DNA from: an uncultured Candidatus Woesearchaeota archaeon
Lineage (GTDB): Archaea; Nanobdellota; Nanobdellia; Woesearchaeales; UBA525
DNA: 64,000 nucleotides
NCBI GenBank assembly: GCA_963724455.1
Contig: CAVRUV010000006.1
Location: 63,158 to 127,157, forward strand
Direction of reading: 5' to 3'
Made by a program: the position numbers and the translations under genes. This document shows, in pieces, positions 46,675 to 64,000 of the stretch (the first letter of the stretch is position 1; each line of letters opens with the position of its first letter). Below the pieces are notes generated by a model. It ran no database searches and had not been told where the DNA came from. It saw nothing but the letters and a program-made list of their open reading frames with translations.

Positions 46675-46802
46675 ATTATTTTTATCTTAGAGGTGTTTAT
46701 ATTTCTTCTCCTTTATCTTCTCTAATATTAATATTTTTATTCTCGCCGACACGCTTTTAAACAAGGCTTGCTACAAGAAGCAGATGAGGGGTGAAAACTC
46801 AT

Positions 46803-48032
46803 ATGAGTTGTGAAAAGAGGCCGGTAAAACAAGGGCAAATAACGCTCTTTGTAATAATAGGTCTTGTAGCACTAATCATAATAGGAATTTTCTTTTCCCT
46901 TGCAAAAATGCCAGTTTCTAAAGAACCTTCACAAGCAATAGAAAATGTAGCAGATAATGCGATTTTGCAACAATATTTGTCATCTTGTCTTGATAGCGTT
47001 GTAAATGATGAATTGTATAAATTAGGTCAAAGCGGCGGACTTCCAAATGATCCAGGATACCCTTCGGCAGAAGTTGGAGATGGTGAAAGCATAAGAAAAG
47101 TATTGTACGGTGTTACACGCAATAGAGATGTAGATATCCCACAACCAGCAGTCGCTCCAGAATATCCAGATAACAGTTCTTCATTTGCTAATATGTCAAT
47201 AAATGCTCGTACCGGACAACCATTCTTACCATTCAAAGATGGATTTTTCGGGGATACGCATTTTCCTGCAACATGCGAGCGAACAGGCGCAAATGCTCTG
47301 GGTGGAGCGCATGCATGTAGATATTATATTGATAATCCCCCTGGAACAAAAGGACCGTCAACACAAAAGCAATTACAGCAAAGAATTGAGCAGCGTGTAG
47401 CTGAGTGTGCAAGCCTTGATAGGTTCAATCGTGCAACAAACGGAGCAATATCTTCTGTTAATGTCCCCACAGTTAATCTATCTTTTTCATCAGATGTTGT
47501 AATGGTAGGATTTACTTATGATATAACTTTGAAAGGAAGTGCGCACAAACTTCTGCCAATTACAAGAAGATATGATGTGCGATATGTTTCAATTGCAGAA
47601 TTCGCGTATGATCTTGCTCGTGAAGAGACAAGAAATCTTACTTTTAATCCTGCAAATCCTCTTCATTACAAGAACATACAATCGTATAGAAACGGATTTA
47701 CTGTCGGAAGAAGCGAAGTTGTAACAACAGGAAATTATCTCATTCCTCCATCGCAAATTAAGAATGCGACACTCATTACAATTATTGATGATAAATCTTC
47801 TTTGCGTTCAGAAACATATGATTTTTCATTCCTAATAGAACATAGGACTCCTGTATTGAATAAATTGAGTGATATTTCGCAATGTGTGCTTACAAATGGA
47901 ATAGACCCCGACACCTTACTCGTTATTGTCAATTTAGTTGAAGTAAAAGACATTAATGATGTTACTATTGGTCATAATTGTATAGTCACGGATACAGATG
48001 GTGAAAAGGATTGGCAGTATATTGCTTCTTAG
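46803..48032 (+). CDS. Secreted protein with a class III (type IV prepilin-like) N-terminus.
   Basis: The track start at 46791 is GTG. ATG 46803 gives MSCEKRPVKQG|QITLFVIIGLVALIIIGIFF. GAGGGGTGA lies about 8 nt upstream. Confidence 0.6.
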   Translation: MSCEKRPVKQGQITLFVIIGLVALIIIGIFFSLAKMPVSKEPSQAIENVADNAILQQYLSSCLDSVVNDELYKLGQSGGLPNDPGYPSAEVGDGESIRKVLYGVTRNRDVDIPQPAVAPEYPDNSSSFANMSINARTGQPFLPFKDGFFGDTHFPATCERTGANALGGAHACRYYIDNPPGTKGPSTQKQLQQRIEQRVAECASLDRFNRATNGAISSVNVPTVNLSFSSDVVMVGFTYDITLKGSAHKLLPITRRYDVRYVSIAEFAYDLAREETRNLTFNPANPLHYKNIQSYRNGFTVGRSEVVTTGNYLIPPSQIKNATLITIIDDKSSLRSETYDFSFLIEHRTPVLNKLSDISQCVLTNGIDPDTLLVIVNLVEVKDINDVTIGHNCIVTDTDGEKDWQYIAS

Positions 48033-48179
48033 AGGTTTAAGGAATTGGGTTAAGAACTTCAAAAGGAGGATTTAAGGGGTTAAATGCGAGTTTGTGGTGG
48101 ATTATTTATTCTTTCTTCAACATCTTCTACGTCGTAAAGTTTATAAATGCCAAGACGGGAGAATTGATGTGGTGTGGCT

Positions 48180-50465
48180 ATGAACCGTATGTTTGTTGCA
48201 GTTATAGCAGTTTTAACAATACTTATTGCAATTCCCCTCTGTGCTAACTTTGCTAGCGCAGTAGATCCGGTAGGCTGCTGTGTTCCTAAAAACAGTACAG
48301 TATCATGCTTTAGTGCAGCAGGAAATTTCATAACACAACCAGAATTCGATTCAGCGTGTATTGCTTTGCCCGGTCAGAAAAAAAACGTTGCAACCTGTAA
48401 CGGTCTTAGCGAATGTACAACGGGTTGCTGTTGTGCTGATGCCGCAACTGTTCCTAACGCGGCAACTTTTAACAGTCTTGAAACAAATCTTAATATGACA
48501 CAAGGAGCTTGTGCAGCAAAACCCTGGTCGGGAGAACAAGGCACTTATACTTTTACAAAAACTATTCCTACTGACCCAACAAAAGATACTTGCGTTGAAG
48601 TCTGTAAAGGCTCTTCAGGTGGCGGCTCAGCAAAATACAAAGTTTCTGGTGTTGTTCATAATGCAACAAATACCGCTAAACCAGGATTGAAAAATGTCAC
48701 CGTATACATTCCAGTAATCAATGGATTCATCTCTTCAATTAGCGACGGGCAAGGTAAATTCGTGCTCAATGATGTTCCCAGTATGATAAAACCAATTTAT
48801 GCAATACACCCAGCATGCATGCCTTATGTTTCACAACCATACACTGTTGATAAGGACATCACCAATGTTAATATAGATATGAATTGCGATCTTAAAGCGT
48901 GTTCTCGCATAAAACCAACAATAGAAAATCTTGCGCTTATTGCAGGAACCGACAAAGCATCATTTACTGCAAAATACGACGATAAATGCAAGGATTTTGT
49001 ACGATTTATTGTAAAACGCTGTGATAAGGATTTCAAAAACTGCGGTATGCGAGGACAGATGACTGATCCCGATGTTACTGCTGCAAAAAAAGAAGCAACA
49101 TTTACTGATTCTGGACTTACTAACAATACAAAACACTGCTATCTTGTAGATGTAGAAACATTCACAGGATATATAGAAATGAACGGTTCAGCAGATGGTG
49201 GAAAATGCATAGATGAAGGGGATAAAATTTGCATGACCCTACCTGCAGACCATCCAACTTCATGGTGCGGTACTAACGATGCTAGAAAACCTACAATTTT
49301 GAGTTGTGATGATAAGAATAAACTCGATAAAACATCTCACGTCTGTAACGATAAAGAAGTTTGCACAGTTGATACTGACGGACCAGTATGCATTCCAATG
49401 GAAGATTGTAGAAAATGCAATGGTATATTAGGATTCTTTGCAGGATTTGTTCGAGCAATTGGTGTTGGAGATTTTATGAAAACATGCGGGTCACAAACAC
49501 CAACTTGCTATATTGATACTCGTGATGGTGATGCAAGCACAGCTCGAGCAAAAACAATGAATGTATACACATCTTGCGCCAACGTAACAGGATGCACTAC
49601 TTATGGAAGTAAAAATGTGTGCGATAATAATGTCTGTACAACTGGCGCGGGATCATGTCAGTGGAAAGAAATTAGTAAAGAACTTAGTGCCGGCATTTGC
49701 ATTTCAAAAGAAAATCCTGAATGTAGCGCATGCAATACGGTTTTTGGATATTGCAACAAAGCAGCATGCACTGCGATAAGCCCTGATTGCTATTATGATC
49801 AAGACAAAGGAGCATTTGCATACAATCTTGGTTGTGTTAATAAAAATGAGATGGCGTGCGCATTCTATGATACAAAAACTGATTGTGTAGGCAGCGGAGC
49901 TAATGAAAAAAGCGCTATATACAATATTACCTATACTCAAGACAATAGAACCGGCGGAACTAATAGCAGGATACGTCCAAGCAATGATATATTAGGAATT
50001 GGTGCATGTGTCTGGCTTGATGCAGAAGCGATTTGCGTAAAGAATACAGATAATCATTATTTCAAAACTCCAAGAGTTGATGATTGTAGCGATTATCTTG
50101 CAAATCCTCCAATATCTTGCTTTAAGGACAGTACTCCTCCTAATACAAGCATAGAATTACTCAACAAGCCATATTCTAGGGCGCAAATCAGAGGACTTCC
50201 ATTTATCGTAATTGATGAAGGATCAGCACTAGACACCCTCAAGACATTTGCTTGTTTTAATATCACAGATAATAATTGCTATCCGCGCGAGGAGTTGCGC
50301 AAATTATCGATTAATAGCATTCCTCCCGCAGGAACATTCACATTACGTTATTACTCAATGGATAAAGGTGGGAATATCGAGGAGATCAAGAGCACAGTAA
50401 TTACTGTAGTTGATACTGGAGAACCAATATTGGAGCTGCCAATTGATATTCAAGAGAATCCATAA
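48180..50465 (+). CDS. Cys-rich secreted protein (about 761 aa) with a Sec-type signal peptide.
   Basis: The track start at 48174 is GTG; the ATG is at 48180. MNRMFVAVIAVLTILIAIPLCANFASA|VDP. Many Cys, including GCCV and GCCCAD clusters. Confidence 0.7.
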   Translation: MNRMFVAVIAVLTILIAIPLCANFASAVDPVGCCVPKNSTVSCFSAAGNFITQPEFDSACIALPGQKKNVATCNGLSECTTGCCCADAATVPNAATFNSLETNLNMTQGACAAKPWSGEQGTYTFTKTIPTDPTKDTCVEVCKGSSGGGSAKYKVSGVVHNATNTAKPGLKNVTVYIPVINGFISSISDGQGKFVLNDVPSMIKPIYAIHPACMPYVSQPYTVDKDITNVNIDMNCDLKACSRIKPTIENLALIAGTDKASFTAKYDDKCKDFVRFIVKRCDKDFKNCGMRGQMTDPDVTAAKKEATFTDSGLTNNTKHCYLVDVETFTGYIEMNGSADGGKCIDEGDKICMTLPADHPTSWCGTNDARKPTILSCDDKNKLDKTSHVCNDKEVCTVDTDGPVCIPMEDCRKCNGILGFFAGFVRAIGVGDFMKTCGSQTPTCYIDTRDGDASTARAKTMNVYTSCANVTGCTTYGSKNVCDNNVCTTGAGSCQWKEISKELSAGICISKENPECSACNTVFGYCNKAACTAISPDCYYDQDKGAFAYNLGCVNKNEMACAFYDTKTDCVGSGANEKSAIYNITYTQDNRTGGTNSRIRPSNDILGIGACVWLDAEAICVKNTDNHYFKTPRVDDCSDYLANPPISCFKDSTPPNTSIELLNKPYSRAQIRGLPFIVIDEGSALDTLKTFACFNITDNNCYPREELRKLSINSIPPAGTFTLRYYSMDKGGNIEEIKSTVITVVDTGEPILELPIDIQENP

Positions 50466-50528
50466 GTACAAAGTGTACAAGGTATAACAAAAATAGTTAT
50501 TTAGTAAAATAATAAAAATAGGTGAGCA

Positions 50529-53500
50529 ATGAGAAGTAAAATATCATTATCTATTGTGTTGTGTGTGCTTGCAATAGCTCTTCTTGTTCCCTCAATCCAC
50601 GCATCGGTTACAGTAAATGTTGGAAATTATAGCGTATCAAATCCAAAAATATTATTGAATTATTCTGAATTAGTTACATTGCAATCAGCAATATTAGTTG
50701 ATGCAACACATCCTGATCCATACACTCTTTGTCAAGTACCAAAACAGGCAGAATATGCAAAAAACTTTGAGTTATACACAAGAACAGGAGCTAATATAGA
50801 TACTTGTGAAGGCGGGGAGACTAAATTGTTAGAACCTGGCAAGTACTCTCTTACTCTACAGGCAATAAATAGGGATGGAAATTCAACCATTGATACTGTT
50901 GAGTTTAACGTTGTCGGATTGGATATACAATTCATTTCTCCAGCACAAGGTATTGCAAACAAAACTCCATATGATGTAAAATTCTGGACAAGTGAAGATG
51001 CTATTTGCAAATACTCATTTACATCAAATGATAATTTTGCATCAATGAGTCTGACATTAGAAGCAGATATGTATGTCAAAAATCATAACGTGCACGGCAT
51101 TACTTATGTCGATAGCGATTTTTTTGTTATCTGCAAAGAGCATAACGGAAGAATGACTGCAAAAACAATGCGAATAGGATTTGATAATTCTCCTCCAGTA
51201 TTTCAAGAACTTGCAGCAATACCGCAAAAAGTTATTGATCCTAACAACCCATATTCTAGCATTATAGCAAAAACAGACGATAAAACTGTTTGCAGTGTTA
51301 AGATGTGTGATGGCGTAGTTTTATTCATAAGCCAAAATGGAAAGCGAGAATCTCCAGAGATTGTAGAATTATACAATACAACACATGCCACAACATTCTA
51401 TTATAACGAATCTCCTTGCAGCAAATCAACAAGCGATATGCGTCCATATCCTATCTATAATAATATTACTTGCAAGAATCTTGCGGGCTATAGTGCTTCA
51501 AAAGGCATAACAGTACTTTTGAATTTTAGCGAGTTCTCATACATCAATGTATTAGAACCATCCGCGCTCATTAGTAAAACAGTCTTTGATGTTGTTGTTC
51601 AACCAGAGACATTCACAGCAGACTCTTGTTTACTTGATGGCAGAGAAATGAGCCCCGGAGTAGATCCTAGCACTTTTACGCTTGAAAAAACATTACCAGT
51701 TAATCCTAAGAAATTATACAATGTGACTTTAAACATCACTTGCAGTAACAGCGTAAAGACTACAGAACGTTTATACAACATAACTATAGATTTGAATACA
51801 CCTCCTGCGCCAGGTATTGACGGAGGAAATGCTATATGTTCTGGTTATATACCTGTAAAATTCTTCATGCCAGATGGTACATCTGTAGAAAATTATACTT
51901 ATACATTGACTGATGGCGCAGGCCTCAATATACAAAATACAACAAGACAAAATACAATCGAAATAAAAATACCGGGCACAGCACCAACTCACGTAAAGTG
52001 GAGTGTTTATGCAATAACTTCAGCAGGTAAGCAATCACCTACAAATGAAACAGAAAGAGATGTTGAAGAGGGTGAAGACGAAGTATGTGGATTGCCCCCC
52101 TTTATTACAATAAAATCACCACCATTAGGATTTGGTAAAGTATCCCCTTACACATTAGTGTTAGGCACAGTTACGTCAAGCGAATGCAGATTCTCAATTG
52201 ATAAGCAGGAAGCTTGGGAGAATATGTCTAAATTCATAGTAAGTGATGCTGGAAAAACTCATACAAAGCAGAAAATAGAGAATAAATCTACTATGTATGT
52301 GACGTGCATCGAAACTGCAAATAGTAAAGTTCATCATAAAAAAATTGATATTGGCATAGATGATACTGCACCCAGAGTTTCAATAAAAATATCTCCAAGC
52401 ACAATACAACAAGATCCAAAGGTTGCAAGTATAGAAGTTATAACGGACGACAGAACATATTGTACACACACAAGTACTGCAGGGCCACAATTTACTACAA
52501 TGCTCCCAACATCACAAAGCGCATATACATTAGAACATTATTCATCTTTCGATTATCGAGCAACATCAGACGATCCAACCGATTATGAGTTTGATGTTAC
52601 ATGCAAAAATCTCGTAGGAAAAGAAACAACGGTAAAAGCATTGCTTGCAGTAGATATAGCACCAGCAATAAAAATAACAGTACTTGCTCCTCCAGAGTTT
52701 GTTGCTAGATCAAATGGACAAAACTTAACCATACAAACAGACAAACTAACCGCAAATTGCTACTGGAGAAAAGCAGGCAATCCATCATCAACAGATTTTG
52801 AAGGAGCAAATGGAAAATATACCTCTTCAATTGGACCTTTGCTAAACGGCAGTAATTTCTTCTCTATTTGGTGTTCAGCAGATGATCAAACGTCAGTTCT
52901 TGCATACCAAGTAACTGTGGATGGCGAGTTGCCGGTAATCACTACATTTTCAGGACCGGCATCAGCTTGTCCAGAATCTACTATAAAATATCAATACACA
53001 GTTTCCGGACTTGACCAATCACCGACAATTTCTTACAGTCTTGAAAATGATAATGGCTTCGGAGTTAGTTTCCAACAAAATACTACAGATGCGATATTAT
53101 CATTGCCACTCGTAGGTATTACAGCAGGCAATTATACATTAACAGCATTCCCTATTAATCATGCAAATGCAGAGGGCCCCAAAATACGAATTAAATTAAA
53201 AGTATTATCTGCAGATGACGCATCTTGTACTACTAATCATTGTTCTGATAATCAGAAAAATTATGATGAAATAGGTATTGATTGCGGAGGCATTTGCCCA
53301 GTGTGCATTTCTTGTCAAGATGATTTTGTTTGTCCTCTCGGAGAAGTTTGTACAGCACATGTATGTGTAAAACCAAATGCTTGCTCAACACAAACCGATT
53401 GTAAGTTAACTGAACGTTGCGAGAATGGAAATTGCGTAGATGCATCATGTACAAGAGATTCTGATTGTACCGCACCCACAATTTGTATTAAGAGCGTCGG

Positions 53501-55678: not shown

Positions 55679-56885
55679 ATACAAATCGTGTTCAAATAAA
55701 CAAATTCGTTCACATGAACAAATGTGTTCACGACCACACTTATCAAGATTAGTTAAGCGAAATAATAAATTCTCTCAGCCTAAAATTTCAAAACCAGTAC
55801 TCTTCAAACCAGTGCATCCTAAATCAAATAAGGGACAAATGGAATCATCTTTTCAATGGGTGTATGTGATAATTGCTGGCGGTTCATTTCTATTAATATT
55901 TTTTATGCTTTTTAGAAGCTGTTCGTCTGCAGGAGAAATAAAACAAGACGCTCAAGCAATTACTGCTACAGCAACAGCATTATCGAGTGTTGGTTGGCAA
56001 AGTAATTTACAGAAAAACTTTTCTGTACCAGAAGTGAGCGTATTGTGTCCTGTGGGAAGTTTAACGCTCCATAGCACCGGTGCTAAGAGCATCGATAAAC
56101 CAATTGATCGCGTTCCTATTTTCTTCTCCTCAAATATGGGGGGATTATTGCGCGTAATCATGCGAAATATTTCTATAGATATGGGTTCATCGGGGAGTAT
56201 TAGTTATGGAACTGTTGGGTATGCAATAGATGCCAATACATATTATTTCTTGATAAAAGATGATGATGATCATTCTTCAGCATTTTCTCAAGGTAAAAAG
56301 TTTTATGAAAGTATAAATGGAACAAATATTAAATTTGTAAAATATGATTCTCTTGAAGTAGAATTAAATAAAATTCCCTCGAGTGCGCACGGAGTAGTTA
56401 TTGTAGCATTCGATGCAAGAAATACTGACACAATAGATTCTCTTATTGCTAATATCGATCCAAAAATAACTTTTGTAAGGTTGCAAGGCAATTCGATAGA
56501 GTTTTTTAAGAAAAGTGGGACAAGGCTTGTTTCTGAGGGATCAACAACCAATATCGACAGCAGGTTTGCGTTAGGCGCAATAGTGAGTGGTGATAAAGTT
56601 TTATATCTGTGTACGAAAAATGTTATTCTTGAACGTGCAAGAAAAATTACAATAATTTATGGATTAAGAGCAGAACAAATAGCTCGGTCAGAATCGCCAG
56701 CTCTTAGCGACAATTGTAAAGAGCTTTATGGAAAATATCCTGGCGGCATTAATACTACACTCTTCAATCTTAATAAGCAATCTCAAACAAATCCCGATGC
56801 ATATTTAGCAGAATTACTCCATCCAACAACAACGCGTTATTTGCAAGATGATGCATACTCAAGCAGCTGTCCGGTGATAGCATGA
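55650..56885 (+). CDS. Pilin-like protein (411 aa; start uncertain) with the class III motif ...KSNKG|QMESSFQWVYVIIAGGSFLLIFFMLF after a long basic N-region.
   Basis: GGAGGGG lies immediately before the ATG at 55650, overlapping the previous gene by 29 nt. The hydrophobic segment is preceded by K/R/P-rich sequence. Confidence 0.5.
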   Translation: MAARLESASEYKSCSNKQIRSHEQMCSRPHLSRLVKRNNKFSQPKISKPVLFKPVHPKSNKGQMESSFQWVYVIIAGGSFLLIFFMLFRSCSSAGEIKQDAQAITATATALSSVGWQSNLQKNFSVPEVSVLCPVGSLTLHSTGAKSIDKPIDRVPIFFSSNMGGLLRVIMRNISIDMGSSGSISYGTVGYAIDANTYYFLIKDDDDHSSAFSQGKKFYESINGTNIKFVKYDSLEVELNKIPSSAHGVVIVAFDARNTDTIDSLIANIDPKITFVRLQGNSIEFFKKSGTRLVSEGSTTNIDSRFALGAIVSGDKVLYLCTKNVILERARKITIIYGLRAEQIARSESPALSDNCKELYGKYPGGINTTLFNLNKQSQTNPDAYLAELLHPTTTRYLQDDAYSSSCPVIA

Positions 56886-57424
56886 TGTTTTTGCAACTTT
56901 GTAGAAAAGTATTTGAAAAAAAAGTAGTTCGTCGTGCACAGCTTCAAGCAATGGAACCCATCATGATAGTCATTGTTCTAGCGATTATTGCAGGCATTTC
57001 ATTGCTTTTCTATGTTAGATTATCTTCGGGAGAAACACGAGCACAGATTAGAACAACAGAGTCTATCGAAGACGTACAAATATTGGGAGCGGTTGCTAGG
57101 ATGCCGGAATTATTATGTCCCGATACAGAATCGGTGCAAGTAAATTGTATAGATTATGAAAAAGCAAAAATATTTTCTCAAAGCTCTAAACTGCCGGAGA
57201 ATAAAATATATTACAATCCATTTTTTGGAAATGCAAACATAACATTGTATTGGATAGAGTCTATAAGCGGGTCTAATGATGTTACAATACAATCACAGCA
57301 ACTTTTTGATACGATGGTAAATAGAAATAAAACCAAGACTTCGATAACGTATTTTACGTTGTATAAACCAATAGAAGACCGCAGATACATGGCGTGGATG
57401 CAAATAGAGCGTGAAGTGCAATGA
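56882..57424 (+). CDS. Pilin-like protein (180 aa), coupled to the upstream gene by an ATGA overlap.
   Basis: ...VRRAQ|LQAMEPIMIVIVLAIIAGISLLFYV. Confidence 0.6.
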   Translation: MMFLQLCRKVFEKKVVRRAQLQAMEPIMIVIVLAIIAGISLLFYVRLSSGETRAQIRTTESIEDVQILGAVARMPELLCPDTESVQVNCIDYEKAKIFSQSSKLPENKIYYNPFFGNANITLYWIESISGSNDVTIQSQQLFDTMVNRNKTKTSITYFTLYKPIEDRRYMAWMQIEREVQ

Positions 57425-57927
57425 GCCAAAATAAATTTAATCAAACGAGACGCGCACAAATGGAAATGGTTGGTCTTGTATTTATTGTGGTTATTATTGT
57501 CATAGGATTCATACTATACGCTCTGTCAATAGATAAAAAAGATACTTCACAAACATACAAGGATGCTATAGAAAAACAAAAAAGCCCGACATTCTTGACT
57601 GCGCTTGCAACAGCAGATGTTATAGATTGCAACAATATACCTCTTCAAGAAGTAATTGGTAAATGCATTCGTAACGAAAGATACTGCACAAGTGGAGATG
57701 CTTGTGAAGCGGCGGGAGCATTTATGACAACTATTGCAATTAGCACTCTACATACACAAGGCGAAAAGTACGACCTTTATGTTAAAGATCACACCGATAA
57801 GTTACGAGTGTATGATCGTTGTGATAGTATTGGTAATAGAAGCGCTTTAACATATGTGGGTAAAACATATCCTATGAACTTAGGCACTGGCGACACTGCA
57901 ACTTTAGTGCTAGTTATTTGTAAGTAA
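57421..57927 (+). CDS. Pilin-like protein (168 aa), coupled to the upstream gene by an ATGA overlap.
   Basis: MSQNKFNQTRRAQ|MEMVGLVFIVVIIVIGFILYAL. Confidence 0.6.
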   Translation: MSQNKFNQTRRAQMEMVGLVFIVVIIVIGFILYALSIDKKDTSQTYKDAIEKQKSPTFLTALATADVIDCNNIPLQEVIGKCIRNERYCTSGDACEAAGAFMTTIAISTLHTQGEKYDLYVKDHTDKLRVYDRCDSIGNRSALTYVGKTYPMNLGTGDTATLVLVICK

Positions 57928-57993: not shown

Positions 57994-58122
57994 ATGCGCA
58001 AATCACGTAAGGGCGAAGAAGATCAGATGAATAAGACAACAATATATATTATTCTCGCCATTATTGGAATAATCATTCTCATCATTGCAGCAACAAAAAG
58101 CATGAAGTTCCTCAAGACATAA
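57994..58122 (+). CDS. Small single-TM protein (42 aa, MRKSRKGEEDQMNKTTIYIILAIIGIIILIIAATKSMKFLKT), not in the track.
   Basis: ATG to TAA. GAGGAG lies 8 nt upstream. Charged N-region followed by a 20-residue hydrophobic helix. Confidence 0.4.
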   Translation: MRKSRKGEEDQMNKTTIYIILAIIGIIILIIAATKSMKFLKT

Positions 58123-58212
58123 ATATATTGAGAGAACGTTAAAAGTGTTATAAAATGCTAAAAAATGCTATATTGTAGTAATTTGTAGTAATTGATAATA
58201 ATTCGGTAAAGC

Positions 58213-59082
58213 ATGAAACTCTCAAAAAACAAAAAAGGCATGGAATTGCAATCAGCACTTGTTGTCCTGATAATCTTTGGTGTCGTATTATTGATGCTGA
58301 TATTCTTTTACAAGAATTTCTTGCAAGGATCCAGCAAGGAGATGGATGTTGCAAAATGCCAGAGTTCATTGCTGCTCACAAAAGCAGTATCAGATAAAGC
58401 AAAAGGCATAGCTTGTTCGGTCGGCTCTCTTACTCCCTTTACAATAGATTGTCCAAGACAATTTGTTAGTGTTAATAATGGAGAAGTAAATAAAAATGGC
58501 AAGAGTGCAACGTCAAAATATGATGCTAAATGCCCAACTGGAGAAAGCACCTGTTTGCAACAGAATGTTGTTGCATCAGAAATGGCTTTTTGTTCAAATC
58601 TATTCTTTAATGGCGAGCAAGTAGTCCTACAACAGATGGAGATGAGTGAATGGAGTTTGTTAACCCCAAAAGACCACATGACTACTTGTTTTATCTGTTC
58701 AGAAATTACTGTGGATAAGGATACTGGAGATCTTCTGTCATTTCTGAAGGCCAAAACTCAAAAAAGTGGTAAAACCTATTACGATTCTTTAGCAAATAAC
58801 AAAAAAGCTTGGTGCAACAATTATTATGAAAAGCAAAGCACGACTTGCTGGGACGGTATGCGTACGGCAGTTGATACTTCTACATTAGGTTGGGCAAAAA
58901 ATAAGCCAGCTTTAGATTATACATTAAAACCAGGAAAATACGCAGTAGTTTTTGTTCGCGAAGGATTGAGCAGTTGTGATGGAGAGACTAATGATAAAAA
59001 GGGCGATGAATATTTAACAAATACCGTCCAGCTCATTCCTGCTGATAAAATATCTTCATATTGTAATACGGTGATGTCATGA
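58213..59082 (+). CDS. Pilin-like secreted protein (289 aa), Cys-containing.
   Basis: MKLSKNKKG|MELQSALVVLIIFGVVLLMLIFFY. Confidence 0.6.
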   Translation: MKLSKNKKGMELQSALVVLIIFGVVLLMLIFFYKNFLQGSSKEMDVAKCQSSLLLTKAVSDKAKGIACSVGSLTPFTIDCPRQFVSVNNGEVNKNGKSATSKYDAKCPTGESTCLQQNVVASEMAFCSNLFFNGEQVVLQQMEMSEWSLLTPKDHMTTCFICSEITVDKDTGDLLSFLKAKTQKSGKTYYDSLANNKKAWCNNYYEKQSTTCWDGMRTAVDTSTLGWAKNKPALDYTLKPGKYAVVFVREGLSSCDGETNDKKGDEYLTNTVQLIPADKISSYCNTVMS

Positions 59083-59110: not shown

Positions 59111-59123
59111 TGAGGTTTGCATA

Positions 59124-60044
59124 ATGAGCCGTATGATGGGTCGCACAATTGGTCGTATTACGAATCGCCGAGCAGAAGCGCTCACGATGGTAGTTGGTTT
59201 TGTTCTGCTTACAGTTTGCATATTAGTTGCAGTTATGTTTTTTCTTAAATGGAAATCTGCTGTAGCAGATACTGAAGATACTGCTCCATGTGCAACAGCC
59301 ATCAAAGCACATAGCGTTGCAATTAGTTTATCTAAACAAGCAAGCGATGCAGCCAATCTTCCAATAGTTTGTCCAACAAAAATAGTTTCATTAAGCACTA
59401 AAGACGAAGATAAGGTAAAAGAAACGCTCGCCAAAGAGATGAAAAATTGCTGGTCGATGTGGGGTCAAGGCAAGAACAAATTATTCACACAAGATGGAGT
59501 TTATTGTCATGTTTGCAGCATTGTTCGCGTTAATGGCGTAGATAATGTTACTGGATTCACAACATATCTTGATACACACACCGTAGCAAAAGGACAGTCT
59601 TATACAGATTATTTATCCGGCGCAAAGACAGGATCATACTTCAATAAAACTGATTTTCCAGGAATTGATTCAAGCACCATGCCGGTCAATCAAACCGCCA
59701 TAATATTTTATCATGCCAATGGCAAAAAAGCAATCGATAAAGTGTGGAATAGTGTTTTTGGCAATGTTCCTGCTGTTGCAACAACCGGTGCTGTGATTGG
59801 AGCGGTGGCCGGTATTGCTATAGGTATTGCTCTTGCACCTGCAACTGGCGGCACAGTAACTGTTATTCTTATTGCAACTGCTGCAGGAACGTTGGGTGCA
59901 GGTATTGGCGGTGTAACTGCGGCGGCTGCCGCATATAAGGCTCGCATAGAATCTGATTATATGAGTATTGTCGTGATAAAACCACTACGCGAAGAAGAAC
60001 TTACAAGCATGGAATGCAAGTATGCTCCTGTACGCAATACTTGA
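59124..60044 (+). CDS. Pilin-like protein (306 aa) with a second Gly/Ala-rich hydrophobic segment near the C-terminus.
   Basis: MSRMMGRTIGRITNRRA|EALTMVVGFVLLTVCILVAVMFFL. GAGGT lies 8 nt upstream. C-terminal AVATTGAVIGAVAGIAIGIALAPATGGTVTVILIATAAGTLGAGIGG. Confidence 0.6.
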   Translation: MSRMMGRTIGRITNRRAEALTMVVGFVLLTVCILVAVMFFLKWKSAVADTEDTAPCATAIKAHSVAISLSKQASDAANLPIVCPTKIVSLSTKDEDKVKETLAKEMKNCWSMWGQGKNKLFTQDGVYCHVCSIVRVNGVDNVTGFTTYLDTHTVAKGQSYTDYLSGAKTGSYFNKTDFPGIDSSTMPVNQTAIIFYHANGKKAIDKVWNSVFGNVPAVATTGAVIGAVAGIAIGIALAPATGGTVTVILIATAAGTLGAGIGGVTAAAAAYKARIESDYMSIVVIKPLREEELTSMECKYAPVRNT

Positions 60045-60205
60045 ATTTTGTAATAGATGATTTAGCAGGAGGATAATCTAATTAGAATTAAAGAATTAAA
60101 CAAAAATAACTAAGGAAATGATTAATGAAATAATAAGGTCTTACGAAAATTTTTAGTTAAGTACATTCAGCTAAGCATAAATACTAGTTATGAGTGGAGA
60201 AGGAT

Positions 60206-60403
60206 ATGATACTTAATATGATATTTAATATGAAATTTGCAAAGATGAGACTTGCAAAGAAGGGAGATGTTAATTGGACAGTAATTTCTATCATATTAGC
60301 AGTATTTTTGCTTCTTGCAATAATTGGATTGGTGTTGAAAGGACGCAGTTCAGAATCATCATCGCTAAGTCTCCTTTGCCCATTCTTACCATCGTTCTGT
60401 TAG
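60206..60403 (+). CDS. Mini pilin-like protein (65 aa).
   Basis: The track start at 60194 is GTG; the ATG is at 60206. ...RLAKKG|DVNWTVISIILAVFLLLAIIGLVL. GGAGAAGG upstream. Confidence 0.45.
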   Translation: MILNMIFNMKFAKMRLAKKGDVNWTVISIILAVFLLLAIIGLVLKGRSSESSSLSLLCPFLPSFC

Positions 60404-60416
60404 ATTTGAGGATATT

Positions 60417-60590
60417 ATGAAAAAACTACGCGGAAAAAAAGGAGCATTGTGGGATACAATCGCTATCATTATAGCACTTTTTGCACTCGGTGTTTTGTTA
60501 TATCTTACTATCAAGTGGATAGTTGTAGGCGGTAGTAATGTAGTACCTACCAACGCGTCTGAAGTTGCTAAGACGATACTTTCTAAATAG
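60417..60590 (+). CDS. Mini pilin-like protein (57 aa, MKKLRGKKG|ALWDTIAIIIALFALGVLLYLTIKWIVVGGSNVVPTNASEVAKTILSK), not in the track.
   Basis: ATG to TAG ORF, 14 nt after the previous stop. Class III-like N-terminus. Confidence 0.45.
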   Translation: MKKLRGKKGALWDTIAIIIALFALGVLLYLTIKWIVVGGSNVVPTNASEVAKTILSK

Positions 60591-60671
60591 TTCCTAAGTA
60601 GTTTCCGTCAATAACCACCATAACCTTTAAATAGTCTTAGAGGAGAAAAATATCATGCCCAGAGGTGGTTT

Positions 60672-60920
60672 ATGAAACGACATGGCGAACTCTCAATGGA
60701 AGTAATTATCATAGCAGCAATAGCATTACTTATTCTCGTAATATTAAGTGTGCTCATCATTAGAAGTGGCGGTAAGCTTTCTACTGATTGTACTAATTCC
60801 GGTGGAACTTGTGGTACAAAAGGAGGTTGTGAAGCTGGAGCACTCGAAACGCCAAACAGCGGCGGATGTCCTGGTGGTTCAGAAGCAGTCTGTTGCACAT
60901 CGCTTGCTAAGAAAGAGTAA
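60672..60920 (+). CDS. Mini pilin-like protein (82 aa) with a Gly/Cys-rich C-terminal module.
   Basis: MKRHG|ELSMEVIIIAAIALLILVILSVLII then DCTNSGGTCGTKGGCEAGALETPNSGGCPGGSEAVCC. GAGGTGG lies 4 nt upstream of the ATG. Confidence 0.55.
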   Translation: MKRHGELSMEVIIIAAIALLILVILSVLIIRSGGKLSTDCTNSGGTCGTKGGCEAGALETPNSGGCPGGSEAVCCTSLAKKE

Positions 60921-60928
60921 CTCTTAGC

Positions 60929-62881
60929 ATGAAACGTCGAGCACAATCGGCAGATATCATGATGAAAATAGCATTTGCTATTTTCGTTTTTGCCGTGCTC
61001 ATTTTTGTTTTCAAAAAATATGCAGACAAAGCTGATACTTTCAACACTTGCGAATCAGGTACTGGGCAGTGCAAGGCTTCTTGTATTCCTGGTGTTGAAC
61101 GACAAACAGGAGCATTTTGTAAAACCACAGCACAAGTTTGTTGTGTTACAGGATTATCCGGCGCAGGAGGTGGAGGTACAACTCCTGGCGGTGGCGGTGG
61201 CGGATCTGGTACAGAATCTACTCTGCAAGCATTATCGATACCAACTATAAAGTTCTGGTATAATACTGAAAAAAGCCCTTCAAGAGTACCAGTAATTGGC
61301 GGTATGGAAAAAGATATTGTGCTTGTAGCAGATATTACAGTTCCATACTACGATCCTGCTTTAGTGCAGAGTTCTAAAACATTATCTGTTGAAGATAAGA
61401 AAATCTGTACTCAAACTGATGCTCAAACAGCAGGCAAGCAAATATATGATCAAAAAGGCGTTTGCGATAAATCAAAATGGGTAATCAATATTACTTTAGA
61501 GACTATATCAACAAAACGCGTAATTGAATATAAGTACGATTTGGTTGGTCCAACGACTGAAATAATAAATTCTTATAGAATTGGACCGGATGGAAAAACA
61601 CCCATTTCTGGCCCTAAATATTTGATTGGCGAAGCTCAACCTCAAGATGATTCTGCAATAAAAGGCGTTGCTTATATGAAAAATGCACGAGAAATTATTA
61701 CCTTGCACGTAGATCCTTCTTTAGCAAAAGACTTCTCCGGGCAATCAGTAAATCTTGTAATTACTGTGCATCCGGCAGGCAATCCTACAAGTCCAATAAC
61801 TGCACAATACCGCGTTGCATTAGCTTCAACATTGCTTGCGCGTTATGAAGGACTCAGTCAAGTATGGAGTCAAGAAAAATCCATCAATACTTATTGTGAT
61901 AAGGATAATGTGCGTTGCGACATGATGGCATTCTCTACACAAGCAAACGTTGAATGCCCCGACACTCCGGGAACGAACGTAAAACAATCACTAACCATTA
62001 TCAAAAAAGTCTATTATATAACAAAATCAGACGGCACTAAATATTCAACAGTTGCATATGATACTCAGACTTCTTGCGAAGGAGCTATTAATACACTAGG
62101 TGGATCAATCGAACAACAATTAATCTCTGCAGCTTCAGTAGTCAATAAAGTTTCAGGAACAGGTTCGGATATCTTCCAAAATAAAGATCTTGCAAACATA
62201 ATAAACCAACAGAATGGCAATCTGAAATGTACGGATGGCTCTTCTGTTAAGACAACATCTGAAGATGTAACTGGACCATACCTTACCGACACATTCAATT
62301 CAGATCCAGCAATTCAAAAAGGTACTATCCGTCTTGCACAAGCAGGAATGGCGGGGCGATATCTCTGCGTTTACGGTCACGACAATAGAACTGATAAATG
62401 GTTTAGTGCAGGAAAAGGACAGAAAATTATGGTAGATAGAACTGCACCGCAAGTCAATATGACTTATTATCCTTGGACAGGATATCGCATTGTTATTGAT
62501 TGCATGGATGGAAAATCTGGAGACACCACAGAATCCGGTTGTAAACCATCCTTTGAATATGCATACATTAGTGAGCCTATGAAGTTCCTTTCAGCTCTTG
62601 TTAGTGGACCACAAACCGCAGCACAATGGTGTCCTACATCTGGTTATGTTACAAGCTCTCAACAACTAATAAACTACAATTACGTTATGAACATAACAAC
62701 TGGCGCGAATATAACGGGTTCGCAGCAAACAATGAATTACAATTACGACGGCATACGCGTTATGTGTGCGCGATGGCAAGATAAGGCCGGCAATCAAGGA
62801 TTGTCTATGGTAACCGTATACAACAGTTATGAATTGCTAGCAAAAGCCATTATGATGCAGCAACAGCAAAAGGCAAAATAA
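60929..62881 (+). CDS. Large pilin-like secreted protein (650 aa) with a Cys module and a poly-Gly linker.
   Basis: MKRRAQ|SADIMMKIAFAIFVFAVLIFVF, then CESGTGQCKASCIPGVERQTGAFCKTTAQVCC, then GAGGGGTTPGGGGGGSG. Confidence 0.6.
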   Translation: MKRRAQSADIMMKIAFAIFVFAVLIFVFKKYADKADTFNTCESGTGQCKASCIPGVERQTGAFCKTTAQVCCVTGLSGAGGGGTTPGGGGGGSGTESTLQALSIPTIKFWYNTEKSPSRVPVIGGMEKDIVLVADITVPYYDPALVQSSKTLSVEDKKICTQTDAQTAGKQIYDQKGVCDKSKWVINITLETISTKRVIEYKYDLVGPTTEIINSYRIGPDGKTPISGPKYLIGEAQPQDDSAIKGVAYMKNAREIITLHVDPSLAKDFSGQSVNLVITVHPAGNPTSPITAQYRVALASTLLARYEGLSQVWSQEKSINTYCDKDNVRCDMMAFSTQANVECPDTPGTNVKQSLTIIKKVYYITKSDGTKYSTVAYDTQTSCEGAINTLGGSIEQQLISAASVVNKVSGTGSDIFQNKDLANIINQQNGNLKCTDGSSVKTTSEDVTGPYLTDTFNSDPAIQKGTIRLAQAGMAGRYLCVYGHDNRTDKWFSAGKGQKIMVDRTAPQVNMTYYPWTGYRIVIDCMDGKSGDTTESGCKPSFEYAYISEPMKFLSALVSGPQTAAQWCPTSGYVTSSQQLINYNYVMNITTGANITGSQQTMNYNYDGIRVMCARWQDKAGNQGLSMVTVYNSYELLAKAIMMQQQQKAK

Positions 62882-62896
62882 ACGAGATGAAAACGA

Positions 62897-63805
62897 ATGG
62901 GACAACCAGTAAGACGACCAATGAGACAACAAGTAAAAGGTCAGATGGCAATCATCGGTAAAATCGTCTTCATTCTTTTTGCTCTCGGAATAATGCTGTG
63001 GCTAATCTATAAATGGTCATCAAACGCAGATGTGGGTGTTGAAAATCTTCAAAAATGCGATGGAGGAACATATAGAGTGCTTTTAGGCGCAACACAAGGA
63101 GTATGTTCTGCTTCAAAGGATTGTGTTGGTAAAGAGCTTCCTACAATAAAAAATTCTTATTGGTTTAGTGTAGCTTCCGGTTGTCCTTCTGCACAATTCT
63201 GCTGTCTTGCAGTTCCAAGCAATGGAGATGGGTCTGATGTTCATAGCGGTTGTACTGCGAGAGATAATGCTGATGGAATCTGGAACGGATTATGTGCACA
63301 AACATCTTGTACAACAGACTTTGTATCAAAAGGTCAAGGAACTTGTTCAAGTGGAGAAGTATGTTGTACAACTAAAGATGCAAAAGTTACAAGAACTCTG
63401 CAAGCTTGCTATGCATATGTAAATTCTCAGTTGACACAACCAGGTGGAACGTTTAAAGATGGCACAAGTACGCTCAAAGTAGATGGTTATTGTTCTCAAA
63501 AGGGTTGTGCTGATGAGTCATTCCCTACAAATAAAATATATTTATTGTTTAGTGGCGGAGCAATAAGCAATGGAAAAAGCGCATGTACTGATGGTTGTTG
63601 TGCTGCATGGGCTTGCAATGCAAAACCCACCCAGCTTGATGCAAGCACAAATACATGGGTAGAAATTCCCAATGCACAATTAGCAAATGGTTTTTGTTCA
63701 AATAATAATTGTAAACATGCTGCACCAGTAGGACAAAAATGGGAGAAATATGGAACCGGTACTTGCGGTAGCGGATACAACTGTTGTGTATTGCAAGCCG
63801 AGTAA
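62897..63805 (+). CDS. Pilin-like secreted protein (302 aa) with at least three copies of the C...C...C...CC module.
   Basis: ...RQQVKGQ|MAIIGKIVFILFALGIMLWLIY. Cys modules ...GCPSAQFCC, ...CSSGEVCC and ...CGSGYNCC. Confidence 0.6.
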   Translation: MGQPVRRPMRQQVKGQMAIIGKIVFILFALGIMLWLIYKWSSNADVGVENLQKCDGGTYRVLLGATQGVCSASKDCVGKELPTIKNSYWFSVASGCPSAQFCCLAVPSNGDGSDVHSGCTARDNADGIWNGLCAQTSCTTDFVSKGQGTCSSGEVCCTTKDAKVTRTLQACYAYVNSQLTQPGGTFKDGTSTLKVDGYCSQKGCADESFPTNKIYLLFSGGAISNGKSACTDGCCAAWACNAKPTQLDASTNTWVEIPNAQLANGFCSNNNCKHAAPVGQKWEKYGTGTCGSGYNCCVLQAE

Positions 63806-63818
63806 TCTTTAGGTCTTT

Positions 63819-64000
63819 ATGGTAAATCGTCGCGGATCGCTCGAATGGAATCTTGAAACAATAGGAAAGCTCTTCATAGGAGCAGTAGTGCTTATTTTCA
63901 TATTTACCCTTACAATTGCAATTTTTAATATCTTCAATCAGCAAGAGGACATACAAGCAAGAAAGAACTTCGATATGCTAGTTAGCAGAATTGAGCAAGT
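63819..64000 (+). CDS. Pilin-like protein, 3'-truncated by the window edge.
   Basis: MVNRRG|SLEWNLETIGKLFIGAVVLIFIFTLTIAIF... running off the end of the window. Confidence 0.45.
   Translation, partial: MVNRRGSLEWNLETIGKLFIGAVVLIFIFTLTIAIFNIFNQQEDIQARKNFDMLVSRIEQ

What the first reader, a model, noticed from the sequence alone, without database searches (positions are those of the whole stretch)
46791..64000. Uninterrupted array of about 13 class III-signal (type IV prepilin-like) genes with giant Cys-rich partners; candidate undescribed surface-filament or adhesion system
From 46.8 kb to the window end every gene is on the plus strand. All but two begin with a short basic N-region ending in G or A, followed by an acidic or polar residue within about 5 positions and a hydrophobic stretch of about 20 residues: KQG|QITLF..., KNA|QISQIF..., KG|QMESSF..., RRAQ|LQAMEP..., RRAQ|MEMVG..., KKG|MELQS..., RRA|EALTMV..., KKG|DVNWTV..., KKG|ALWDTI..., RHG|ELSMEV..., RRAQ|SADIMM..., KGQ|MAIIGK..., RRG|SLEWNLE.... 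This matches the archaeal PibD/EppA-processed pilin/archaellin-type signal. Sizes range from 57 to 650 aa, with mini pilins beside large tip or adhesin-like ones. Three consecutive pairs are translationally coupled through ATGA overlaps (56882, 57421) or near-contiguity. Two very large Sec-signal Cys-rich proteins (763 and 1539 aa) sit inside the array. No assembly ATPase (PilB/FlaI), platform protein (PilC/FlaJ/TadC) or prepilin peptidase is present in these 17 kb, so the machinery is either downstream or elsewhere. The density and diversity of pilin-like genes is unusual. Together with the giant glycoproteins at the other end of the window, it points to an elaborate cell-surface or host-attachment apparatus.
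Basis: partly seen in the sequence, partly recalled or inferred. Interest (0 to 1): 0.8.

Follow-up and report, generated by a model that had tools for sequence, protein, structure and literature searches.

The report
Woesearchaeal pilin-like gene cassette
A tiny symbiotic archaeon (Woesearchaeota) carries a conserved block of about 20 genes, most of which start like pilus subunits and the last of which (seen only in relatives) is fused to enzymes that cut bacterial cell walls, so it may be a surface apparatus for attaching to and attacking bacteria.

Summary
From 46.8 kb to the window end every gene is on the + strand. Fourteen of the 16 genes (13 reported plus a missed 42-aa gene at 57994-58122) start with a short basic leader, G/A, a polar or acidic residue, then a ~20-aa hydrophobic helix. 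None of 27 upstream genes does.

The organism is a Woesearchaeote (DPANN). The block is a conserved cassette of about 20 genes, found in the same order in MAGs with 36-61% GC. Across 18 families in five genomes, 70 of 78 N-termini keep [KR][GAS] just before the helix. In the large gene-1 family the +1 Gln is invariant. This matches archaeal class III (EppA-type) signals.

In three relatives the cassette ends with a pilin-like protein of about 1,100-1,250 aa that carries murein hydrolase domains (M23 in all three, with Amidase_2 and/or SLT). Housekeeping genes follow in the relative read past that gene. No ATPase, platform or peptidase lies next to it.

No Pfam or NCBIfam pilin family matches, and the two structure models do not resemble solved pilins. 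Cleavage and filament assembly remain inferred.

Verdict: a new variant of archaeal type IV pilus-like loci.

The parts
46803..48032 (+). Gene 1 (409 aa; the ORF opens at GTG 46791). The leader reads MSCEKRPVKQG|QITLF, followed by a TM helix. The C-terminal domain is PKD/cadherin-like.
48174..50465 (+). Gene 2, 763 aa. It has a cleavable Sec-type signal and 51 Cys. Probably a secreted adhesin-like partner.
   Evidence: There is a weak OmpL47-type barrel hit at the C-terminus. Orthologues of 696-780 aa with a conserved GCC[VIL]P motif sit at the same position in relatives.
50529..55148 (+). Gene 3, 1539 aa. It has a Sec-type signal, 93 Cys, a C-terminal TM helix (aa 1342-1360) and a charged tail. 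Probably an S-layer-like or anchored surface protein.
   Evidence: Weak DUF7107 and Y_Y_Y hits. Orthologues of 1289-1497 aa are present in all relatives.
55184..55678 (+). Gene 4, 164 aa, pilin-like. N-terminus MKNA|QISQIF followed by a TM helix.
   Evidence: Orthologues read KRA|QIPEIF, SKG|QTQQVF and SKG|QIPQLF.
55812..56885 (+). Gene 5, about 357 aa from GTG 55812 (the ORF opens at 55650). N-terminus NKG|QMESSFQW followed by a TM helix.
   Evidence: Orthologues start MKG|QLE(S/V)SFQW or RRG|QLEVSFSW. No Pfam or NCBIfam hit.
56882..57424 (+). Gene 6, 180 aa. N-terminus RRA|QLQAMEPI followed by a TM helix. Its start overlaps the gene 5 stop (ATGA).
   Evidence: Orthologues read [KR][GA]|Q(L/F/I)Q(A/T/S)(L/M)EPI.
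57421..57927 (+). Gene 7, 168 aa. N-terminus RRA|QMEMVG followed by a TM helix, with 5 invariant Cys. Its start overlaps the gene 6 stop (ATGA).
57994..58122 (+). N-terminus MRKSRKG|EEDQMNK followed by a TM helix. A mini pilin candidate with no globular domain.
   Evidence: Positional orthologues are present in L003, L010, L064, L065 and L017.
58213..59082 (+). Gene 8, 289 aa. N-terminus NKKG|MELQSAL followed by a TM helix, with 12 Cys.
   Evidence: Orthologues read RKG|MELQS, RRG|VELST and RKG|VSLEA. It is weakly similar to gene 9 (pairwise E 0.07). dN/dS is 0.11.
59124..60044 (+). Gene 9, 306 aa. N-terminus NRRA|EALTMV followed by a TM helix. It also has a Gly/Ala-rich C-terminal TM hairpin, so it is a membrane-embedded component rather than a simple pilin.
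   Evidence: TM scan. Orthologues. dN/dS is 0.11.
60245..60403 (+). Gene 10, 52 aa (the ORF opens at 60194). N-terminus MRLAKKG|DVNWT followed by a TM helix. A mini pilin candidate.
   Evidence: Positional orthologues of 45-50 aa keep [KR][GA] and the TM helix, although sequence identity is only 24% and dN/dS is 0.69.
60417..60590 (+). Gene 11, 57 aa. N-terminus GKKG|ALWDT followed by a TM helix. A mini pilin candidate of Flp/EpdE size.
   Evidence: dN/dS is 0.47.
60672..60920 (+). Gene 12, 82 aa. N-terminus MKRHG|ELSMEVIII followed by a TM helix, then a small 6-Cys knot.
   Evidence: It is 89% identical in L003, and the N-terminal 30 aa are nearly identical in all five genomes. dN/dS is 0.11.
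60929..62881 (+). Gene 13, 650 aa. N-terminus KRRA|QSADIM followed by a TM helix, a Cys knot, a Gly-rich linker and a large beta-rich ectodomain. A modular, adhesin-like pilin candidate.
   Evidence: Only one homologue was found by word-based search (P0009, 67% identity). Orthologues of 562-678 aa are present in relatives. No Pfam hit.
62921..63805 (+). Gene 14, 294 aa (the ORF opens at 62897). N-terminus VKG|QMAIIG followed by a TM helix, with 24 Cys. A paralogue of gene 15.
   Evidence: blastp between genes 14 and 15 gives 1.6e-16. Orthologue starts.
63819..64000 (+). Gene 15, 5' end only; the complete gene is 391 aa in L001. N-terminus NRRG|SLEWNLE followed by a TM helix, with 26 Cys.
   Evidence: L001 is identical to the window over 11,104 bases and extends it. 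Downstream lies gene 16 (292 aa, SRKG|SIPWMFE). By synteny genes 17-19 follow.

Best explanation
This is the window's copy of a conserved Woesearchaeal cassette of about 20 co-oriented genes. Eighteen of them encode proteins with archaeal class III (type IV prepilin-like) signal peptides. Two encode Sec-secreted giant Cys-rich surface proteins.

Proposed mechanism. The only shown parts are the sequence patterns, the conserved gene order and the absence of machinery genes from the locus; each mechanistic step below is inferred.
- The precursors are inserted through Sec.
- A class III signal peptidase encoded elsewhere (FlaK/PibD/EppA type) removes the short basic leader after G/A.
- A FlaI/PilB-type ATPase with a FlaJ/TadC platform, also encoded elsewhere, assembles the N-terminal helices into a type IV filament.
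- The three mini proteins (genes 7b, 10, 11; about 35-48 aa when mature, essentially one helix) are the best candidates for the bulk subunit, as in Flp/Tad and EpdE pilins.
- The 150-400-aa members would act as minor pilins that prime or cap the filament.
- The large members are modular pilins that display functional domains: a PKD-like domain on gene 1, a large ectodomain on gene 13 and, in the relatives, a last gene carrying murein hydrolase domains (M23 in all three relatives, with Amidase_2 and/or SLT).
- The likely function is contact with bacterial cells and local lysis of their peptidoglycan, for attachment, feeding or predation.
For: Pattern:
- Fourteen of 16 genes in the window carry the motif, against 0 of 27 upstream genes.
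- [KR][GAS] lies within 13 residues of the hydrophobic domain in 70 of 78 N-termini, from 18 families in five genomes. The -1 residue is G 53, A 16, S 1. The +1 residue is Q in 26.
- The permutation test gives P = 8e-4 and 3.5e-5.
- In the gene-1 family, 124 of 150 representatives have [GAS]QxTx[FYL], the -2 residue is R or K in 106 of 124, the leader is mostly 3-10 aa, and Q(+1) is invariant.
- These are the published rules for archaeal prepilins: G/A/S at -1, a charged residue at -2, and EppA processing sites KGQ/RAQ (PMC4371748).

The genes are real and form a functional unit:
- The gene order is identical in relatives with 36-61% GC.
- dN/dS is 0.09-0.30 for the larger genes.
- Two gene pairs overlap by ATGA.

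Modular end gene: orthologues of 1126-1249 aa combine a class III-like N-terminus with Amidase_2, Peptidase_M23 and/or SLT domains.

Machinery exists in the lineage: flaB/H/I/J/K were detected in most Woesearchaeota MAGs of one study (PMC11606122).

Architectural precedent: archaeal T4P loci with five or more minor pilins, large adhesins, an S-layer-like protein with a C-terminal TM helix, and many cysteines (PMC4858521; bioRxiv 10.64898/2026.04.22.720090).

Topology: the gene 7 model has a 59-residue N-terminal helix followed by a four-stranded sheet.
Against: - No Pfam or NCBIfam pilin, archaellin or class III signal family matches any member.
- The best structural neighbours of the gene 7 model are PDC/Cache sensor domains, not pilins, and that model has only pLDDT 70.
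- No ATPase, platform protein or peptidase lies in the window, next to the cassette in relatives, or within 10 kb of any class III-like gene in about 0.92 Mb of fetched DPANN loci. The last point rests on a motif scan only.
- The rest of this genome could not be read.
- In many members up to 9 polar residues separate the putative cleavage site from the hydrophobic core, which is longer than in textbook prepilins.
- Gene 9 has extra C-terminal TM helices.
- The hydrolase gene is seen only in relatives, not in this organism.
- One preprint states that T4P systems are missing in DPANN genomes.
Confidence: 0.55

Rival explanations
1. The class III signals are real and are processed, but the proteins do not build an extended pilus. 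They form a short pseudopilus or a membrane-proximal surface complex, comparable to the Sulfolobus bindosome or a type II secretion pseudopilus. Its task would be to display or release the Cys-rich giants and the murein hydrolase at the cell surface.
For: - Class III signals occur on non-pilin functional proteins in archaea, such as bindosome binding proteins.
- Many members are large or carry enzymatic or adhesive domains.
- Gene 9 has additional TM helices.
- The globular parts do not look like solved pilins.
- The locus holds two Sec-secreted giants that could be cargo or partners.
Against: - Three tandem mini proteins that are little more than one helix are what filament-forming Flp/EpdE-type subunits look like, and are hard to explain as enzymes or binders.
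- A pseudopilus still needs the same ATPase, platform and peptidase, so this differs from the best explanation only in filament length and use.
Confidence: 0.2
2. The N-termini are ordinary uncleaved signal anchors (type II membrane proteins). The basic residues reflect the positive-inside rule, and the Gly/Ala is a helix-capping or packing preference. The cassette then simply encodes membrane-tethered surface proteins and a tethered murein hydrolase.
For: - No pilin family and no pilin fold was detected.
- No machinery is linked to the cassette.
- Polar spacers of up to 9 residues lie between the G/A and the hydrophobic core.
- One preprint reports T4P systems as missing in DPANN.
Against: - A signal anchor has no need for a fixed G/A directly after the last K/R, yet this is kept in 70 of 78 N-termini while the leaders themselves change in sequence and length.
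- Q(+1) is invariant over 83 diverged gene-1 homologues.
- The adjacency of K/R and G/A exceeds the expectation from leader composition.
- The Sec-signal genes 2 and 3 in the same operon lack the motif.
- Genes for the archaellum peptidase and ATPase are reported in most Woesearchaeota MAGs of one study.
Confidence: 0.15
3. The block is an integrated virus or mobile element that encodes envelope or structural membrane proteins and a lysin.
For: - All genes are co-oriented, densely packed and mostly orphans in annotation libraries.
- The terminal gene has lysin-type domains.
Against: - The GC content matches the flanks.
- No integrase gene, flanking tRNA gene or PHROG match was found.
- The same chromosomal position next to Memo, the pseudouridine synthase and the PP-loop ATPase recurs in the syntenic relatives, and Memo-gene 1 adjacency also holds in a more distant MAG. 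GC ranges from 36 to 61% across these MAGs, which means vertical inheritance over long times.
- Purifying selection.
Confidence: 0.03

Closest known systems
Epd pili of Methanococcus maripaludis and the related archaeal 'system 1 / clade 1' type IV pilus loci (EppA-processed pilins)
   Same: - Short basic leader with processing-site motif KGQ/RAQ and Gln at +1. Seven of 15 members here have it, and it is invariant in the gene-1 family.
- Often an acidic residue within the first few mature positions.
- Many different pilin-like genes in one cluster.
- A major-pilin candidate that is little more than the N-terminal helix.
- Large adhesin-like partners.
   Different: - No ATPase, TadC-like platform or peptidase in or beside the cassette.
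- No sequence-family match.
- About 18 pilin-like genes instead of about 5-10.
- A terminal pilin-like murein hydrolase.
- Longer polar spacers before the hydrophobic core in many members.
Thermoproteales type IV pilus loci (subclades 4E/4G of Makarova et al. 2016)
   Same: - One large protein with a C-terminal TM helix (S-layer-like).
- One large signal-peptide protein (adhesin or minor pilin).
- A set of diverse small predicted minor pilins.
- Conserved cysteines throughout.
   Different: - Those loci are defined around their ATPase and TadC genes, which are absent here.
- Different phylum; no detectable homology was tested or found.
Modular type IV pilins (e.g. Streptococcus sanguinis PilB/PilC) and bacterial minor-pilin/PilY1 tip complexes
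   Same: - A pilin-type N-terminus fused to a bulky functional module.
- A set of several minor pilins encoded together with a large adhesin (PMC8179133).
   Different: - Bacterial leader rules (G|F, Glu5, N-methylation) are not followed.
- The module here is a set of murein hydrolase domains (M23 with Amidase_2 and/or SLT).
Sulfolobus bindosome (class III signal peptides on substrate-binding proteins)
   Same: Class III-type N-termini on proteins whose main part is a functional, non-pilin domain; encoded away from the assembly ATPase.
   Different: Bindosome proteins are solute-binding proteins next to ABC transporters. Here there are no transporter genes, and there are many small members with no functional domain.
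Archaeal secreted peptidoglycan hydrolases and the proposed predatory or 'vampiristic' Woesearchaeota
   Same: M23, amidase and lytic transglycosylase domains in DPANN/Nanoarchaeia genomes, taken as evidence for attack on bacteria (PMC12352652; PMC9723730).
   Different: In the passages read, those reports describe such enzymes as isolated genes. The link to a class III-type N-terminus and to a conserved cassette of about 20 pilin-like genes was not found in the literature searched.

Membership tests
Archaeal class III (type IV prepilin-like) signal peptide substrates | A short positively charged leader that lies before, not after, the hydrophobic domain | tested here: met
   All 15 pilin-like N-termini of the window and its L001 extension. 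In the gene-1 family the -1 residue mostly sits at positions 4-11.
Archaeal class III (type IV prepilin-like) signal peptide substrates | Gly, Ala or Ser at position -1 (rule quoted in PMC4371748) | tested here: met
   All 15 in the window have G or A. Across five genomes 70 of 78 N-termini have [KR][GAS] (G 53, A 16, S 1), and five more have G/A with a non-basic -2.
Archaeal class III (type IV prepilin-like) signal peptide substrates | A charged residue at position -2 | tested here: met
   Twelve of 15 in the window. The exceptions KQG, KNA and RHG have K/R at -3, and their orthologues have R/K at -2.
Archaeal class III (type IV prepilin-like) signal peptide substrates | A hydrophobic domain of about 20 residues beginning at or right after the cleavage site | tested here: inconclusive
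   A TM helix is always present, but it is separated from the G/A by up to 9 polar residues. Some members (genes 1, 4, 14) are canonical. Others (genes 5, 15, 16) have long spacers.
Archaeal class III (type IV prepilin-like) signal peptide substrates | Cleavage by a class III signal peptidase (PibD/FlaK/EppA); a positive call by FlaFind or SignalP | not testable with these tools
   No predictor or experiment was available, and the genome outside the window was not retrievable.
Curated pilin/archaellin sequence families (Pfam-A, NCBIfam) | A profile match to a pilin, archaellin or class III signal family | tested here: not met
   No such family at E<=0.1 (Pfam) or E<=1 (NCBIfam) for any of the 16 proteins.
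Type IV pilin fold | A long N-terminal alpha-helix packed on a globular beta-sheet domain, with structural similarity to solved pilins | tested here: inconclusive
Type IV filament (TFF) system as a locus | A PilB/FlaI-type secretion ATPase and a PilC/FlaJ/TadC platform encoded with the pilins | tested here: not met
   None in the 64-kb window. None flanking the complete cassette in L010/L011 or inside it in L064/L065. No ORF with a P-loop plus GE[IV]R box in 0.92 Mb of fetched loci.
Type IV filament (TFF) system in the genome | ATPase, platform protein and class III signal peptidase present somewhere in the same genome | not testable with these tools
   The 142,450-bp source contig and the rest of the MAG could not be fetched. 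At lineage level, flaI/J/K were found in most Woesearchaeota MAGs of one study (PMC11606122), whereas another preprint calls T4P missing in DPANN.
EppA-type (Epd) pilins | Gln at +1 and an acidic residue near +5 | tested here: inconclusive
   Q(+1) is present in 7 of 15 window members and in 26 of 70 across genomes, and is invariant in the gene-1 family. By inspection of the N-termini, an acidic residue lies within +1 to +7 in 12 of 15, but rarely exactly at +5.
Modular pilins | A pilin-type N-terminus fused to an independent functional domain | tested here: met
   In relatives: gene 19 has RRG|DMFMLG or RKG|ETFMFG plus a TM helix, then Amidase_2 (E 9.6e-12), M23 (E 2.7e-17) and SLT. In the window: gene 1 carries a PKD-like domain.

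The most novel reading that the evidence does not exclude
Woesearchaeota build a dedicated 'attack pilus'. This would be a type IV filament of helix-only subunits, primed by a dozen minor pilins, that carries a pilin-anchored set of murein hydrolase activities (amidase, M23 endopeptidase, lytic transglycosylase) and Cys-rich adhesins at its end. The filament would be used to bind bacterial cells and breach their peptidoglycan. If so, the partners or prey of these DPANN archaea are bacteria, and the cassette is the first defined archaeal organelle for cross-domain parasitism or predation.
Probability: 0.22. Interest if true: 0.85.

Novelty: new variant of a known kind. Interest (0 to 1): 0.62.

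Why it matters
Woesearchaeota are among the most widespread DPANN archaea. None is cultivated, and their partners and mode of interaction are unknown.

A conserved, vertically inherited cassette takes up about 25 kb of a very small genome. It encodes some 18 prepilin-like proteins, two giant Cys-rich surface proteins and, in the relatives, a pilin-anchored murein hydrolase. That gives a concrete, testable candidate for the contact apparatus, and it points to bacteria rather than archaea as targets.

The cassette also defines a large unannotated protein family (gene 1, more than 500 clusters at 50% identity). That family has a confidently predicted fold with no solved relative. It also provides a clean set of DPANN class III signal sequences that current profile libraries miss.

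Tried and rejected
- A homology search with genes 4-9 joined into one 1464-aa query returned nothing, not even the proteins themselves, so one capped search was wasted.
- A search with gene 16 found only itself.
- Scans of genome contigs and metagenome contigs with gene 16 found nothing.
- The 142-kb source contig could not be fetched through genes 13, 14 or 16, so genes 17-19 and the machinery of this organism remain unseen.
- An alignment of 38 gene-1 homologues was too diverse for a locus scan.
I obtained protein ids for the same sequences by exact look-up instead.
- The afdb50 fold library was unavailable.
- Genes 8 and 9 look like distant paralogues by shared Cys motifs, but pairwise BLASTP gives only E 0.07, so I do not claim it.
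- The virus or mobile-element idea was rejected on synteny, GC and the PHROGs result.
- The sigma-70 promoter scan was not used because it does not apply to archaea.
- I recalled a FlaFind-style regular expression from memory. I did not use it as evidence because I could not verify it in a held paper (one search failed).

Full report
**Observation**

The ORF table confirms an unbroken run of + strand genes from 46.8 kb to the window end, at the coordinates given.

Reading the N-termini with all candidate start codons shows the described pattern in 13 genes. The pattern is a short basic leader ending in G or A, then a polar or acidic residue, then a hydrophobic helix of about 20 residues. A simple hydropathy scan finds one N-terminal TM segment in each.

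A 14th gene had been missed. It lies at 57994-58122 and encodes 42 aa, MRKSRKG|EEDQMNK followed by a TM helix.

The two exceptions, of 763 and 1539 aa, have classical cleavable Sec signals and 51 and 93 cysteines. The larger one also has a C-terminal TM anchor.

The ATGA overlaps at 56882 and 57421 are real.

None of 27 genes upstream in the window has such an N-terminus. Shuffling the residues of each leader, which keeps its composition, gives 6.0 expected [KR][GA] pairs against 12 of 15 observed (P = 8e-4). In a distant relative the figures are 7.9 expected against 15 of 18 observed (P = 3.5e-5).

**Context and organism**

The window is archaeal. It carries Cdc6, PolD small and large subunits, aIF2-beta, MCM and TBP. 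GC content is 33-39% throughout, with no shift at the array. There are no tRNA genes.

No Pfam family for a secretion ATPase, a platform protein or an A24 peptidase occurs anywhere in the 64 kb.

Loci found with the gene-1 family come almost only from MAGs labelled Woesearchaeota, Nanoarchaeota, Nanoarchaeia, Nanobdellota or Pacearchaeota, that is, DPANN. Many of these records are deposited as 'uncultured Methanosarcinales archaeon', which I take to be default labels; this was not checked. Two N-terminal-only matches are on records labelled as bacteria.

**Extension and relatives**

- A Logan contig (L001/L002) is identical to the window over 11.1 kb and extends it by 2.2 kb. It completes gene 15 (391 aa) and adds gene 16 (292 aa, SRKG|SIPWMFE).
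- A close relative (L003, 60-89% amino-acid identity for most genes) has the same order for genes 7 to 16.
- The exhaustive search with gene 1 found 506 cluster representatives at E<=1e-3.
- The best hit led to a syntenic locus in a 61% GC organism. It has the same upstream neighbours (a MopE/HINT giant, a PP-loop ATPase, DoxX, an S4 pseudouridine synthase and Memo) and the same array.
- Walking down that contig showed the whole cassette: genes 1-16, then genes 17 and 18 (188 and 180 aa, RSG|QAEMIEW and RKG|MWTQVF), then gene 19.
- Gene 19 is 1239 aa. It begins RNRRG|DMFMLG followed by a TM helix and carries Amidase_2 (E 9.6e-12) and Peptidase_M23 (E 2.7e-17).
- After gene 19 the strand flips and unrelated genes follow (RadB-like, ScpB, MJ0538).
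- Two more relatives, at 49% and 56% GC, show the same gene order, with sizes similar for most genes. They end in proteins of 1126 and 1249 aa with M23 and SLT, one also with Amidase_2.
- Further MAGs show the first part of the cassette. A more distant one keeps the Memo-gene 1 pair near MCM and TBP.

The block is therefore an old, vertically inherited cassette and not an island. PHROGs gives no viral signal. dN/dS between the window and L003 is 0.09-0.30 for the larger genes. For the mini genes 10 and 11 it is 0.5-0.7, yet both keep the motif and the helix.

**Are these class III signals?**

The published rules are a G/A/S at -1, a charged residue at -2 (critical in archaea), cleavage before the hydrophobic domain, and, for EppA substrates, sites such as KGQ and RAQ with Gln at +1 (PMC4371748).

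- In the gene-1 family, 124 of 150 representatives have [GAS]QxTx[FYL]. The -1 residue is G 77, A 31, S 16. The -2 residue is R 60, K 46. The -1 residue sits mostly at positions 4-11.
- Q(+1) is one of only three invariant columns in an 83-sequence alignment.
- Across 18 families in five genomes, 70 of 78 N-termini have [KR][GAS] within 13 residues of the helix. Five of the eight exceptions have G/A with the basic residue at -3.
- The leaders differ in length and sequence between orthologues, while the dipeptide and the first mature residues are kept. Examples are RRA|QMEMVG, RRG|QMEMVG and KRA|QIEMIG for gene 7, and KG|QLE(S/V)SFQW for gene 5.

An uncleaved signal anchor would not need this. 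The Sec-signal genes in the same operon lack it.

Against a textbook reading, up to nine polar residues can precede the hydrophobic core, and no curated family matches.

**Structures**

- Gene 1, modelled with 83 sequences, gives a confident model (pLDDT 91.3, pTM 0.86). It has a TM helix, a helical stalk and beta-rich domains.
- The gene-1 family profile matches PKD domains of collagenase ColH in its C-terminal part (E 5.6e-5), which is an adhesion-type module.
- Gene 7, modelled with nine sequences, gives a moderate model (pLDDT 70) with one helix from residue 6 to 64 and a four-stranded sheet.

Structure therefore neither confirms nor excludes pilin function.

**Machinery**

Nothing resembling FlaI/PilB is linked to the cassette or to any class III-like gene in about 0.92 Mb of fetched DPANN loci. 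This rests on a scan for a P-loop plus a GE[IV]R box. The remainder of this genome could not be retrieved.

The literature is mixed:
- flaB/H/I/J/K were detected in most Woesearchaeota MAGs of one study.
- A census of archaeal type IV filament systems reports some systems in DPANN.
- An earlier preprint states that T4P systems are missing in DPANN.

**Interpretation**

The most economical reading is a type IV filament-like surface apparatus whose subunits are encoded apart from the assembly genes. Haloferax PilA1-6 is a known precedent for such separation.

- The mini proteins are candidate bulk subunits, comparable to EpdE or Flp pilins that lack a globular domain.
- The mid-sized members would be minor pilins.
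- Genes 1, 13 and 19 would be modular pilins.
- Genes 2 and 3 would be adhesin-like and S-layer-like partners, as in the Thermoproteales loci described by Makarova et al..

The conserved murein hydrolase at the end points to bacterial cell walls as the target. This fits earlier genomic proposals of peptidoglycan-degrading, possibly predatory Woesearchaeota.

I found no paper in the held library that describes this cassette, or a pilin-anchored murein hydrolase in archaea.

**Verdict**

This is a new variant of a known kind of system. It is of moderate to high interest because it offers a testable handle on how uncultivated Woesearchaeota contact other cells.

Noticed in passing
window 4945-15480 (with 37-4860 and 15467-18859): A 3511-aa Sec-signal protein carries DUF2341 (E 4e-17). 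Makarova et al. 2016 point to this domain in PilY-like adhesins of archaeal clade-1 pilus loci. It is flanked by a 1607-aa protein (Big_7/CARDB/Big_13) and a 1130-aa protein (FG-GAP). These giants may belong functionally with the pilin-like cassette 30 kb away.
   Followed up: no
window 38691-42527; orthologue L004 262-4092: A 1278-aa Sec-signal protein with a MopE metal-binding motif. Its syntenic orthologue has PT-HINT and Hint_2 domains, an architecture typical of polymorphic toxins. This is a second hint of antagonistic interactions.
   Followed up: no
window 45817-46674 (- strand) and 46803: The Memo-family gene sits directly upstream of gene 1 in most relatives where that flank could be read: divergently in L004, L005, L007, L015 and L065, and co-oriented in L013. 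In L019 a different gene sits there. The reason for this conserved pairing is unknown.
   Followed up: partly
L010, L064, L065 versus the window: The same cassette of about 20 genes is kept in organisms whose GC content is 36%, 49%, 56% and 61%. That is a very wide compositional spread for one syntenic block.
   Followed up: partly
L010 10536-14255 (gene 19 orthologue): The M23 domain has the HxxxD motif (HDAVD). Its second metal motif reads AHLDF, that is HxD instead of the usual HxH as I recall it; the canonical form was not checked here. The endopeptidase may be altered or inactive, whereas the amidase and SLT modules were not inspected at residue level.
   Followed up: no
window 60672-60920, 60929-62881, 62921-63805, 63819 onward: Genes 12 and 13 carry a small cysteine-knot module directly after the TM helix (C-x5-7-C ... 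CC), and the Cys-rich genes 14 and 15 also end in a CC pair. Gene 12 gives a weak defensin-like Pfam hit (E 0.03). Genes 14 and 15 are paralogues.
   Followed up: partly
Gene-1 family, alignments A3-A5: Besides Q(+1), the family has invariant or near-invariant Cys62, Cys158, Cys172 and Cys202, and a D-P-D motif near the C-terminus. These are probably disulfides and a calcium site of the PKD-like domain. About half of the 150 best-scoring representatives are roughly 830-1,600 aa long, with extra C-terminal domains.
   Followed up: no
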